Source of the DNA: a virus | Lineage: Duplodnaviria; Heunggongvirae; Uroviricota; Caudoviricetes | Virus record (IMG/VR): IMGVR_UViG_2711768070_000013 | Coordinates: 1-4,297 of that record | Direction: 5' to 3' (one strand) | DNA: 4,297 bases | In this document: piece after piece, positions 2,656-3,345 of the stretch | Layout: the number at the start of each line of letters is the position of its first letter | Numbering within the stretch: position 1 is the first letter of the stretch | Notes under the pieces: generated by a model | The model's database searches: none | The model's input: only the letters and a program-made list of their open reading frames with translations | Told to the model about the DNA's origin: nothing | Translations under genes and position numbers: made by a program

Positions 2656-3075
2656 GATAATGGCTTATACCCTACACGGGATAACTTAACTGATATCCCT
2701 TTTAACGGATAAAGGTATTCAAGCCTGACACATCATGCGCTGTATCGTCGCTGTATTCCCTCATTAACAGAGACCGCAGCCCGACCGGGAGAATCCTCTG
2801 CGCGAGTGTGCGGGGATAATCAAAAACGATACACACCGGGGTTTACCGCGTTAACGGAGCGCGGCGTTGTCCCCTCATGGTCGCTGGTCCGGTGCGATGG
2901 TGGAAGAAGCCGGATGTTTATCACTATTAATTGATAACACAGAAATGGATTCATTGATTTTCAGCACGTTTTTGTATTCGTATTATTGAACATCTGTTTA
3001 TTTTACTTTTAACATATTGATAATAAAAAGAGCTGTAAATCTTTAGATGAGTCGATTTTGTCCGGGGAAGTTCAA

Positions 3076-3216
3076 ATGGATTTTATGCTGACGGTTTCTG
3101 GTGTGGTTATCCTGTCCATTGCTTATACTGCAGATAAATATGGCTGCCATTTGTTATCACGTATTGGCGCTTATTGCTCGTTGATGCTGATTTTCTCGTC
3201 GCTTTTTTTTGAGTAA
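3076..3216 (+). CDS. Hypothetical 46-aa hydrophobic peptide (two predicted TM helices) in the AT-rich island
   Basis: ATG 3076 with GGGGAAG 7-8 nt upstream; MDFMLTVSGVVILSIAYTADKYGCHLLSRIGAYCSLMLIFSSLFFE; two hydrophobic stretches separated by a KYGCH..SR turn. Below the ORF-track cutoff and unverified. Confidence 0.35.
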   Translation: MDFMLTVSGVVILSIAYTADKYGCHLLSRIGAYCSLMLIFSSLFFE

Positions 3217-3345
3217 GTTATATTAATTATAACAAATAATTTTCTGTGTTTTTTCAGGCTATCCCGTCAGACGGGAAGCCTGTACTGCCGGGGGACGAAT
3301 GGAAAACTGATGTGTCCGGTAACTGTGTGTTCTGTGAACACCATG

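What the first reader, a model, noticed from the sequence alone, without database searches (positions are those of the whole stretch)
2920..3260. AT-rich island (~30% GC) carrying a 46-aa two-helix hydrophobic peptide ORF
Composition drops sharply relative to the ~50-55% GC flanks and no long ORF is present, yet a short ORF with a plausible RBS encodes a peptide with two hydrophobic segments. Small membrane peptides in AT-rich, promoter-like prophage DNA are typical of type I toxins, exclusion factors or membrane regulators, and are usually missed by annotation. The N-terminus MDF resembles a 14-codon ORF at 2945 (MDSLIF...), hinting at a duplicated start region.
Basis: partly seen in the sequence, partly recalled or inferred. 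Interest (0 to 1): 0.55.

Follow-up and report, generated by a model that had tools for sequence, protein, structure and literature searches.

The report
Annotated prophage small membrane-protein gene (ECs1538)
The AT-rich island is a small accessory gene cassette in an E. coli lambdoid prophage whose 46-residue ORF is already annotated (ECs1538 in O157:H7 Sakai), is transcribed and ribosome-covered in uninduced lysogens, probably makes a two-helix inner-membrane protein of unknown function, and shows no sign of being a type I toxin.

Summary
Window 2920-3260 is 32% GC against 59% just to its left, and the 46-codon ORF at 3076-3216 has a GGGGAA Shine-Dalgarno and two hydrophobic segments. ORF length and hydrophobicity alone are not beyond chance: 26-43% and 15-26% of shuffles match them.

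Other evidence supports a real gene.
- It is RefSeq WP_000347013.1, which is ECs1538 of Sakai prophage Sp6, and occurs in 734 of 5,426 complete E. coli genomes.
- A rare allele with 81% DNA identity keeps the frame without indels (dN/dS 0.28, hydrophobicity retained).
- The promoter-like core (2958-3030) and the SD are the best-conserved non-coding parts.
- Published Sakai RNA-seq and Ribo-seq give RNA RPKM 57.6, footprint RPKM 26.1 and 98% coverage in LB. The RNA level is 5-19 times that of the late genes upstream.

It is an orphan, with no homolog outside E. coli prophages. The cassette (2915-3376) sits in the variable slot between lysis and packaging genes.

I read it as a moron-type, lysogen-expressed small inner-membrane hairpin protein. 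The type I toxin reading, the "missed by annotation" claim and the "duplicated start" idea are not supported. Function is unknown and interest is low to moderate.

The parts
2915..3376 (.). Variable (mosaic) cassette: the AT-rich island plus the spacer up to the 3' end of ylcI. Phage JLK-2012 has an unrelated 653-bp segment here.
   Evidence: BLAST breakpoints are window 1636-2914 and 3377-4297 against L007. 179 E. coli genomes match only the first 35 nt of the query 2880-3300, up to 2914. GC drops from 59% to 28% at 2915.
2958..3030 (+). Conserved promoter-like core. Candidate sigma-70 elements are TTTTCA (2958-2963)-17-TATTAT (2981-2986), TTGAAC (2987-2992)-17-TAACAT (3010-3015), and a -10-like GATAAT at 3019-3024. 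One IHF-consensus match lies at 3010-3022 on the minus strand.
   Evidence: This stretch is 90% identical between alleles that are 81% identical overall, and 2996-3030 is 100% identical. TATTAT is replaced by GATAAT at the same position in allele B. The scan hit is, but the hit count is not above shuffles. The IHF pattern has a single hit in the window against 0.2 expected. ECs1538 RNA is 5-19 times that of the upstream late genes in uninduced Sakai.
3064..3070 (+). Shine-Dalgarno-like GGGGAAG, 5 nt upstream of the ATG.
   Evidence: The anti-SD duplex is -5.7 kcal/mol. GGGGAA is invariant in alleles A, B and the P0007 lineage, within a leader that is only 67% conserved. Huecker 2017 S4 Table lists an SD 4 nt upstream with -3.6 kcal/mol.
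3076..3216 (+). 46-aa ORF (ECs1538 / WP_000347013.1), a predicted two-helix inner-membrane hairpin.
   Evidence: ORF and annotation. Allele comparison gives dN/dS 0.28, no indels, and this is the only frame open in both alleles. AlphaFold2 gives helices 2-21 and 25-44. Ribo-seq gives RPKM 26.1, coverage 0.98 and RCV 0.46 in LB. PredictProtein gives 'inner membrane, 2 TMH' in S9 Table.
3203..3210 (+). T8 homopolymer at the 3' end of the ORF. T8/T9 length variants end the protein at E46 or at F45.
   Evidence: 2 of 45 haplotypes carry an extra T. SHP24 has T9 and a 45-aa product, while P0018 has 46 aa.
3217..3254 (.). Very AT-rich tail after the stop codon (15% GC over 3217-3250). It carries a TTA indel polymorphism and a 10-nt deletion in one lineage.
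3255..3282 (.). 11-bp imperfect hairpin (CAGGCT-A-TCCCG / CGGGA-AGCCTG). A T-run lies on its 5' side only, so it is not a canonical terminator on either strand.
   Evidence: Sequence. It is predicted in both strand folds. The terminator scan does not report it. It is not conserved in allele B or L088.

Best explanation
The island is a small, self-contained accessory cassette of the moron type. It sits in the variable slot of lambdoid E. coli prophages between the lysis genes and the packaging genes.

Proposed mechanism:
1. Its AT-rich 5' part carries a sigma-70-type promoter that fires in the uninduced lysogen.
2. The mRNA has a GGGGAA Shine-Dalgarno and is translated from ATG 3076 into a 46-residue protein.
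3. The protein folds as a helical hairpin (helices about 2-21 and 25-44) and inserts into the inner membrane. By the positive-inside rule (established knowledge), the K21/R29 loop most likely faces the cytoplasm and both short ends face the periplasm.
4. Because it lies in the late-operon orientation, it is also transcribed with the late genes after induction.

Function is not shown. My working model is a lysogenic-conversion or exclusion-type small membrane protein that acts by binding a larger host or phage membrane protein. I do not think it is a pore-forming toxin.

Shown: annotation, distribution, mosaic boundaries, frame conservation, and RNA and ribosome occupancy.
Inferred: exact promoter, membrane insertion and topology, and function.
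For: Gene identity. The ORF is PGAP WP_000347013.1 in all complete genomes inspected. It is ECs_1538/NP_309565.1 in Sakai prophage Sp6, with an identical translation.

Distribution. The island is present in 734 of 5,426 complete E. coli genomes at 1-3 copies. It is absent from 72,556 plasmids and present in 2 of 50,697 phage records.

Mosaic cassette. The boundaries are 2915 and 3376 against JLK-2012. The module occurs with different lysis and packaging backbones. Its GC content is deviant.

Selection. Allele B (SHP24, 80.6% DNA identity) has 25 substitutions in 135 nt and no indel, split 12 synonymous to 13 non-synonymous. dN/dS is 0.28. The probability of no stop plus a BLOSUM score at least as high as observed is 0.047. 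Hydrophobicity is retained (P = 0.015). This is the only frame open in both alleles. Within-type SNPs are 4 synonymous, 1 non-synonymous and 1 ATG to GTG change.

Regulatory conservation. The promoter core is 90% conserved, with 35 nt at 100%. The SD is invariant, while the leader is only 67% conserved.

Expression (Huecker et al. 2017, PMC5597208, S2 Table).
- ECs1538 in LB has RNA RPKM 57.6, footprint RPKM 26.1, RCV 0.46 and coverage 0.98. This passes the authors' thresholds of at least 1, at least 0.25 and at least 0.5.
- Upstream late genes are much lower: holin ECs1530 at 8.4, ECs1536 at 10.1 and ECs1537 at 3.0. A transcript therefore starts between ECs1537 and the ORF.

Structure. AlphaFold2 gives a hairpin with pLDDT 91.5. 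PredictProtein gives 'inner membrane, 2 TMH' (S9 Table).
Against: ORF length and hydrophobicity are expected by chance in this T-rich DNA.

Selection statistics are marginal (P about 0.03-0.06). One lineage (P0007) shows 5 non-synonymous to 1 synonymous change, and its SD G becomes T.

The whole island has low diversity, so within-type conservation says little.

The ribosome signal is modest. RCV of 0.46 compares with a mean of 1.55 for short annotated genes, and by my arithmetic this is about 5-36 footprints per library. BHI count means are 7 and 4.

The count of promoter-like sites is not above shuffles. No intrinsic terminator follows the ORF, so a defining moron feature is missing.

Both hydrophobic segments are only 16-18 residues long and rich in Ser/Gly/Thr/Tyr, so membrane insertion is plausible but not certain.

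There is no homolog or domain anywhere, so function rests on analogy alone.
Confidence: 0.6

Rival explanations
1. Non-functional ORF. The island is just AT-rich spacer or promoter DNA, possibly H-NS- or IHF-bound. It is pervasively transcribed, and ribosomes load opportunistically on a chance ORF, so the peptide has no selected function.
For: ORF length and hydrophobicity are reproduced by 26-43% and 15-26% of shuffles. It is an orphan restricted to E. coli prophages. RCV is low. The P0007 lineage has a 5:1 non-synonymous to synonymous ratio. The best-conserved stretch is non-coding, 2996-3030.
Against: The frame is kept without indels across 18.5% divergence, while the flanks carry indels. 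dN/dS is 0.28. Hydrophobicity is retained (P = 0.015). It is the only open frame in both alleles. The SD is invariant in a variable leader. Footprints cover 98% of the ORF.
Confidence: 0.2
2. Late-gene accessory of the lysis cassette. The peptide would be made mainly from the Q-antiterminated late transcript. It would modulate pinholin, SAR-endolysin or spanin action, and so lysis timing.
For: It has the same orientation as the late operon and always lies downstream of S-R-Rz and upstream of packaging genes. It is a membrane hairpin like class II holins.
Against: In uninduced Sakai its RNA is 5-19 times that of the holin and other late genes. It is separated from Rz by 0.4-1.4 kb and by unrelated inserts. 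It is absent from most phages with the same lysis genes. It has no charged C-terminal tail and no holin family hit.
Confidence: 0.1
3. Type I toxin-antitoxin locus. The peptide would be a membrane-depolarising toxin held in check by an antisense or divergent small RNA.
For: It is a small hydrophobic peptide in a prophage. Its possible 5' UTR is 45-85 nt long. A weak minus-strand promoter-like site lies at 3039-3011 and a perfect TATAAT on the minus strand lies at 3231-3226.
Against: There is no Rfam hit at all, including Sok, Sib, Rdl, IstR, OhsC and OrzO. No toxin family matches. The minus-strand TATAAT is destroyed in allele B and deleted in L088. No terminator exists for an antisense RNA. 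RNA folding is not exceptional, with z about -1.6 on both strands. Ribosomes occupy the ORF during normal growth.
Confidence: 0.06
4. The functional unit is the conserved AT-rich block acting as a protein-binding or regulatory DNA site, for example an IHF or H-NS site affecting convergent ylcI or packaging. The ORF would be incidental.
For: The 35-nt block 2996-3030 is 100% identical between diverged alleles, and the only IHF-consensus match in the window lies inside it. ECs1538 and ylcI (ECs1539) RNA levels co-vary over three conditions.
Against: The IHF match has P about 0.19 window-wide. The cassette also occurs without ylcI (L089, L090). The island lies 0.5-0.9 kb from the terminase gene, outside the repeat-rich cos-proximal region at 4029-4158. 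This reading does not explain ORF frame conservation.
Confidence: 0.04

Closest known systems
Lambdoid-phage morons in the Rz-to-cos slot (for example lambda bor; Juhala/Hendrix moron concept, cited in PMC4104026)
   Same: It is extra DNA at a mosaic junction between the lysis and packaging modules. Its base composition is deviant. It encodes a small envelope protein. It is transcribed in the uninduced lysogen above the level of neighbouring late genes.
   Different: It has no sequence relation to Bor. Bor is a lipoprotein on the opposite strand, which I state from my own knowledge. No downstream intrinsic terminator is found here. It lies in the late-operon orientation.
HK97 gp15-type prophage-expressed inner-membrane superinfection-exclusion proteins (own knowledge, not tested)
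   Same: It is a small, moron-encoded, lysogen-expressed, predicted inner-membrane protein of a lambdoid/HK97-like phage.
   Different: No homology is detected (no PHROG or Pfam hit). It sits in a different genome position and is much shorter. The exclusion phenotype is untested.
Type I toxins (Hok, Ldr, Ibs, TisB, ShoB, DinQ, ZorO) and the two-TM type V toxin GhoT
   Same: It is a hydrophobic peptide of fewer than 60 aa. Like GhoT, it is predicted to have two short helices.
   Different: There is no antitoxin RNA or protein partner and no family match. The hydrophobic segments are weaker and rich in Ser/Gly/Thr. It is translated during ordinary growth.
E. coli small inner-membrane regulators (MgtS, AcrZ, MgrB, KdpF class; own knowledge)
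   Same: Size class of 50 aa or fewer, predicted membrane location, and a likely mode of action by binding a larger membrane protein.
   Different: Those proteins are single-pass, core-genome and conserved across enterobacteria. This one is a two-helix, prophage-borne orphan confined to E. coli.

Membership tests
Phage moron (Hendrix/Juhala sense) | Extra DNA present in some genomes and absent from closely related genomes, with sharp mosaic boundaries | tested here: met
   Boundaries are 2915 and 3376 against JLK-2012. 179 genomes match only the first 35 nt of the query 2880-3300, up to 2914. Other cargo occupies the same slot.
Phage moron (Hendrix/Juhala sense) | Base composition different from surrounding phage DNA | tested here: met
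   GC is 28% (2915-3075) and 15% (3217-3250), against 59% for the left flank and 48.6% for the window.
Phage moron (Hendrix/Juhala sense) | Own promoter, expressed in the lysogen independently of the phage operon | tested here: met
   The promoter-like core is conserved. In uninduced Sakai, ECs1538 RNA RPKM is 57.6, against 3.0-10.1 for upstream late genes. The exact start site is not mapped, and the promoter scan is not above chance.
Phage moron (Hendrix/Juhala sense) | Factor-independent terminator downstream of the gene | tested here: not met
   No terminator is reported between 3216 and 3326. The hairpin at 3255-3282 has no 3' T-run. Huecker S4 Table also lists none.
Type I toxin-antitoxin | Small hydrophobic toxin ORF | tested here: met
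   46 aa, GRAVY 1.11, two hydrophobic segments.
Type I toxin-antitoxin | Antisense or divergent antitoxin sRNA gene overlapping the toxin mRNA | tested here: not met
   No Rfam family at E of 1 or below. No minus-strand terminator is found. The minus-strand TATAAT at 3231-3226 is not conserved. Folding z is about -1.6. A novel, unstructured antisense RNA cannot be excluded without RNA data.
Type I toxin-antitoxin | Homology to a described toxin family | tested here: not met
   Pfam, NCBIfam, PHROGs and PADLOC give no hit. phmmer against 1.84 billion representatives finds only its own family.
Type I toxin-antitoxin | Growth arrest or membrane depolarisation on expression | not testable with these tools
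   This needs an experiment.
Holin / antiholin | TMDs followed by a charged, hydrophilic C-terminal tail; holin family signature; position next to the endolysin | tested here: not met
   The C-terminus is ...SSLFFE with no tail. There is no holin Pfam hit, whereas the true S21-type holin at 534-740 scores 3e-31. The ORF lies 1.8 kb downstream of the endolysin.
Superinfection-exclusion small membrane proteins | Prophage-expressed inner-membrane protein that blocks incoming phage | not tested
   Expression in the lysogen and a membrane hairpin are compatible. There is no homology and the phenotype is untestable here.
Described prophage sRNAs (AgvB, AsxR, Esr41, STnc100, Sok and others) | Match to the Rfam covariance model | tested here: not met
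   There are 0 matches in the whole window at E of 1 or below. Those sRNAs map to the PR' slot upstream of the holin.

The most novel reading that the evidence does not exclude
ECs1538 is a young orphan microprotein restricted to E. coli phages, possibly born de novo from AT-rich moron DNA. Lysogens would express it as a two-helix inner-membrane hairpin with a real fitness role, for example blocking DNA entry of superinfecting phages or modulating a host transporter. It would then be the founding member of an uncharacterised family carried by about 13% of sequenced E. coli, including most major STEC lineages.
Probability: 0.15. Interest if true: 0.5.

Novelty: new member of a known kind. Interest (0 to 1): 0.25.

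Why it matters
The gene sits in about 13.5% of complete E. coli genomes, including O157:H7, O26, O103, O111-type phages, O121, O145, O104:H4 and ExPEC/APEC strains. It is expressed in the lysogen. If it has a function, it is a widespread lysogenic-conversion or phage-exclusion factor of pathogenic E. coli that nobody has studied. As it stands, it is an ordinary, already annotated hypothetical small gene. The main value of this check is to remove the toxin-antitoxin and "unannotated" claims, and to link the ORF to existing expression data.

Tried and rejected
- Family and profile searches found nothing for the peptide: Pfam, PHROGs, NCBIfam and PADLOC.
- Word-indexed search of 5.8 billion proteins found only E. 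coli variants at 84% identity or more.
- Exhaustive phmmer against 1.84 billion representatives found only its own family plus repeat-protein artefacts P0014, P0015 and P0017.
- Neither the protein patterns nor the conserved 35-mer occur in 185,579 species-representative genomes.
- Rfam at E of 1 or below gave no hit in the window.
- Foldseek of the AlphaFold2 model against PDB and BFVD gave only generic helical hairpins, none at E of 0.001 or below.
- RNA folding of either strand was not exceptional.
- The "duplicated start" idea was rejected.
- A 10-nt perfect inverted repeat at 2936-2945 / 3241-3250 brackets the ORF. It does not coincide with the mosaic boundaries, and by my rough estimate such a repeat is expected by chance roughly 0.2-1 times in a 700-bp region. 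I judged it to be chance.
- The mid-ORF frameshift variant P0010 (DEC5B draft) shows several homopolymer-type indels in coding and non-coding DNA alike. I treated it as sequencing error.
- Text searches for WP_000347013, ECs1538 and peptide fragments found no paper that discusses the gene.
- The supplements of the microproteome paper and the EDL933 TSS paper hold no matching sequence.
- The window as a whole has no full-length match among complete E. coli genomes. The best is 86% coverage at 97% identity.

Full report
**Context**

The window is the late region of a lambdoid E. coli prophage.
- 534-740: P21-type class II holin.
- 740-1237: phage lysozyme.
- 1234-1671: Rz.
- 1874-2371: KilA-N/ORF11CD3 protein.
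- 2368-2625: phrog_875 protein.
- 2735-2914: GC-rich non-coding spacer.
- 2915-3376: the AT-rich island.
- 3346-3531, minus strand: a convergent YlcI/YnfO (DUF3950) gene.
- 3573-3938: HNH endonuclease.
- 4029-4158: a repeat-rich region just before the terminase gene.

The exact mosaic of the window is not present in any complete E. coli genome. The best match covers 86% at 97% identity.

Yes.
- GC is 32.0% over 2920-3260, against 58.9% for 2735-2914 and 48.6% for the window.
- The island is composite. It has a 28%-GC upstream part (2915-3075), the ORF at 39.7% GC, and a 15%-GC tail (3217-3250).
- The ORF runs from ATG 3076 to TAA 3216 (46 aa). It is preceded by GGGGAAG at 3064-3070, whose anti-SD duplex is -5.7 kcal/mol.
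- It has two hydrophobic stretches, residues about 2-19 and 26-45, around a polar loop ADKYGCHLLSR.
- AlphaFold2 on a 4-sequence alignment gives helices 2-21 and 25-44 with pLDDT 91.5.

These features alone are weak evidence.
- 26-43% of dinucleotide shuffles of the island contain an ATG ORF of at least 46 codons.
- 15-26% of random plus-strand ORFs are as hydrophobic, because the strand is 43% T.
- The count of promoter-like sites equals the shuffle expectation.

**It is already annotated**

PGAP calls exactly this ORF as WP_000347013.1 "hypothetical protein" in every complete genome I opened. In O157:H7 Sakai it is ECs_1538/NP_309565.1 in prophage Sp6, with an identical translation. One phage GenBank record, LC567835, leaves it unannotated.

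**Distribution**

- The 336-bp core (2915-3250) is present in 734 of 5,426 complete E. coli genomes at 1-3 copies each. Almost all copies are chromosomal.
- It is in 2 of 50,697 phage records and in none of 72,556 plasmids.
- 93 IMG/VR viral contigs encode it.
- Neither the protein nor the conserved 35-mer occurs in 185,579 species-representative genomes.
- Protein searches find only E. coli sequences. Exhaustive phmmer against 1.84 billion representatives adds only repeat-protein artefacts.
- No Pfam, PHROG, NCBIfam or PADLOC family matches.

It is an orphan confined to E. coli prophages.

**Cassette boundaries and mobility**

Against phage JLK-2012, homology runs to 2914 and resumes at 3377. 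In between, JLK-2012 has 653 bp of unrelated DNA carrying other small ORFs.

179 genomes match only the first 35 nt of the query 2880-3300, that is, up to 2914. The unit "spacer + island + ylcI" occurs with different lysis genes and with either HNH/HK97-type or other packaging modules.

In one lineage the cassette lacks ylcI on its right. Across 90 loci the ORF is 99.3% identical at the median, while the adjacent ylcI is 88.2%. The island therefore has a more recent common ancestor than its neighbours. It has spread by recombination.

**Is the ORF under protein-level constraint?**

Within the common allele, diversity is too low to say much. The SNPs are 4 synonymous, 1 non-synonymous and 1 ATG to GTG change, and the flanking non-coding SNP density is similar.

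The informative comparison is a rare allele B in strain SHP24 (WP_000523825.1; P0018 is the same type). It is 80.6% identical in DNA.
- Over 135 nt there are 25 substitutions and no indel, while the flanks carry indels.
- The split is 12 synonymous to 13 non-synonymous, giving dN/dS of 0.28.
- Random placement of the same substitutions gives a stop in 31% of trials. The joint probability of no stop and a BLOSUM score at least as high as observed is 0.047.
- Hydrophobicity is kept or increased (P = 0.015).
- The annotated frame is the only one of six that is open in both alleles, and it shows the fewest amino-acid changes.
- The loop and second helix (LLSRIGAYC.L.LIFSSLFF) are nearly invariant. 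The first helix varies conservatively.

Against this, the P0007 lineage shows 5 non-synonymous to 1 synonymous change, although the frame and a stop codon at the same position (TAA to TGA) are kept. A mid-ORF frameshift in a 2012 draft assembly sits among several homopolymer-type indels and is probably a sequencing error.

Overall omega is about 0.3-0.4. That is suggestive, not conclusive.

**Regulatory signals**

Between alleles A and B the best-conserved segment is non-coding: 2958-3030 at 90%, with 2996-3030 identical. The leader (3031-3075) is 67% conserved, but GGGGAA and CAAATG are invariant within it.

The scan's -10 TATTAT (2981-2986) is GATAAT at the same place in allele B. Other candidates are TTGAAC-17-TAACAT (2987-3015) and GATAAT (3019-3024). 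I read these directly from the sequence.

The only IHF-consensus match in the window (3010-3022, minus strand) lies in the identical block, against 0.2 expected per window.

There is no intrinsic terminator after the ORF. The hairpin at 3255-3282 has its T-run on the wrong side and is not conserved.

**Expression**

Huecker et al. 2017 (PLoS One, PMC5597208) used ECs1538 as one of 250 short annotated control genes. Their S2 Table gives the following values.

| Condition | RNA RPKM | Footprint RPKM | RCV | Coverage |
|---|---|---|---|---|
| LB | 57.6 | 26.1 | 0.46 | 0.98 |
| BHI control | 32.7 | 7.3 | 0.23 | 0.81 |
| Cold + salt stress | 2.1 | 0.6 | 0.29 | 0.13 |

The authors' criteria for "translated" are footprint RPKM of at least 1, coverage of at least 0.5 and RCV of at least 0.25. 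The LB values pass all three.

In LB the upstream late genes are far lower in RNA and footprint RPKM respectively:
- holin ECs1530: 8.4 and 8.4;
- ECs1536: 10.1 and 6.7;
- ECs1537: 3.0 and 2.1.

The convergent ylcI (old ECs1539) is at 45.6 and 11.1. A transcript therefore begins between ECs1537 and the ORF, which corresponds to window 2934-3075, in uninduced cells.

Their S4 Table lists a strong BPROM promoter (LDF 8.00, position "248"), an SD 4 nt upstream at -3.6 kcal/mol, no terminator, and a machine-learning call of "real". Their S9 Table lists "inner membrane" and 2 transmembrane helices.

Two caveats apply. The RCV is below the mean for short genes (1.55). By my arithmetic, the RPKM values correspond to only about 5-36 footprints per library.

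**Mechanism**

The best-supported reading is a moron-type cassette with the following steps.
1. An AT-rich promoter is active in the lysogen.
2. An SD-dependent ORF is translated.
3. The product is a 46-aa helical hairpin that inserts into the inner membrane. By the positive-inside rule (established knowledge), the K21/R29 loop is probably cytoplasmic.
4. The cassette is additionally transcribed with the late operon after induction, because it lies in that orientation.

Function is unknown. By analogy with other lysogen-expressed phage membrane proteins and with E. coli small membrane proteins, I favour action through binding a larger membrane protein, for exclusion or host modulation.

**Rivals**

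- A non-functional ORF in pervasively transcribed AT-rich DNA: about 0.2.
- A lysis-timing accessory: about 0.1. It is disfavoured by expression above the holin in uninduced cells and by patchy linkage to lysis genes.
- A type I toxin: about 0.06. There is no antitoxin RNA signal, no family match and no conserved antisense promoter, and the ORF is translated in normal growth.
- A pure DNA regulatory site: about 0.04.

**Comparison and novelty**

It works like a moron in the classical bor slot. It meets the insertion, composition and autonomous-expression criteria but lacks the terminator. It is not a member of any described toxin, holin, exclusion or sRNA family.

The ORF itself is not new. 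It has been annotated since 2001 and has been measured by Ribo-seq. It is uncharacterised, and no paper in the library discusses it.

I rate it as a new (uncharacterised) member of a known kind, with low-to-moderate interest.

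Noticed in passing
window 90-530: The intergenic region between the end of the sialate esterase-like gene and the holin holds a roughly 168-bp duplicated unit (158-193 and 326-361, 72% identical). It has terminator-like hairpins on both strands (111-95 minus; 391-408 and 453-479 plus) and promoter-like sites. Published PasA/PasC sRNAs map to this esterase-holin slot, and AgvB/AsxR-type sRNAs to the neighbouring PR' moron slot. Rfam gives no hit, so any sRNA here would be an undescribed or non-Rfam variant.
   Followed up: partly
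window 2735-2914: A GC-rich (59%) non-coding spacer is shared by many more prophages than the island (1,181 places in 913 genomes). It ends exactly where alternative cargo cassettes begin. It was once annotated as ECs1537 (72 aa) but was dropped by RefSeq and is barely expressed in Sakai (RPKM 3.0). It carries many SNPs and a 13-nt deletion variant. Its role is unknown, and it could be a recombination junction.
   Followed up: partly
window 4029-4158: Four to five copies of ATGTTAAC(TGGC), in both orientations and including a perfect 22-nt palindrome at 4029-4050, lie between the HNH gene and the terminase small-subunit gene. They look like terminase or cos-binding repeats of an HK97-type packaging module.
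   Followed up: partly
window 3346-3531 (minus strand): The convergent YlcI/YnfO (DUF3950) gene shows about 33 variable sites with clear 3-nt periodicity among 45 haplotypes, indicating strong purifying selection. In Sakai its RNA co-varies with ECs1538 over three conditions. Current Sakai RefSeq annotates a 90-nt plus-strand ORF (ECs_1539) here instead of ylcI.
   Followed up: partly
window 2936-2945 and 3241-3250: A perfect 10-nt inverted repeat (AACACAGAAA / TTTCTGTGTT) brackets the promoter and ORF. It does not coincide with the mosaic breakpoints and is probably chance.
   Followed up: partly
window 3203-3210: A T8 homopolymer forms the last codons of the ORF. T8/T9 variants occur in both alleles and switch the C-terminus between ...FFE and ...FF. 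Other length variants give short extensions (P0002). This is either a slippage hotspot or a sequencing-error hotspot.
   Followed up: partly
window 1874-2625: A KilA-N/ORF11CD3 antirepressor-like gene and a phrog_875 gene are inserted between Rz and the spacer. They are present in only 1 of 90 related loci with this exact arrangement. The KilA-N protein weakly matches PADLOC candidate PDC-S22 (1e-8).
   Followed up: no
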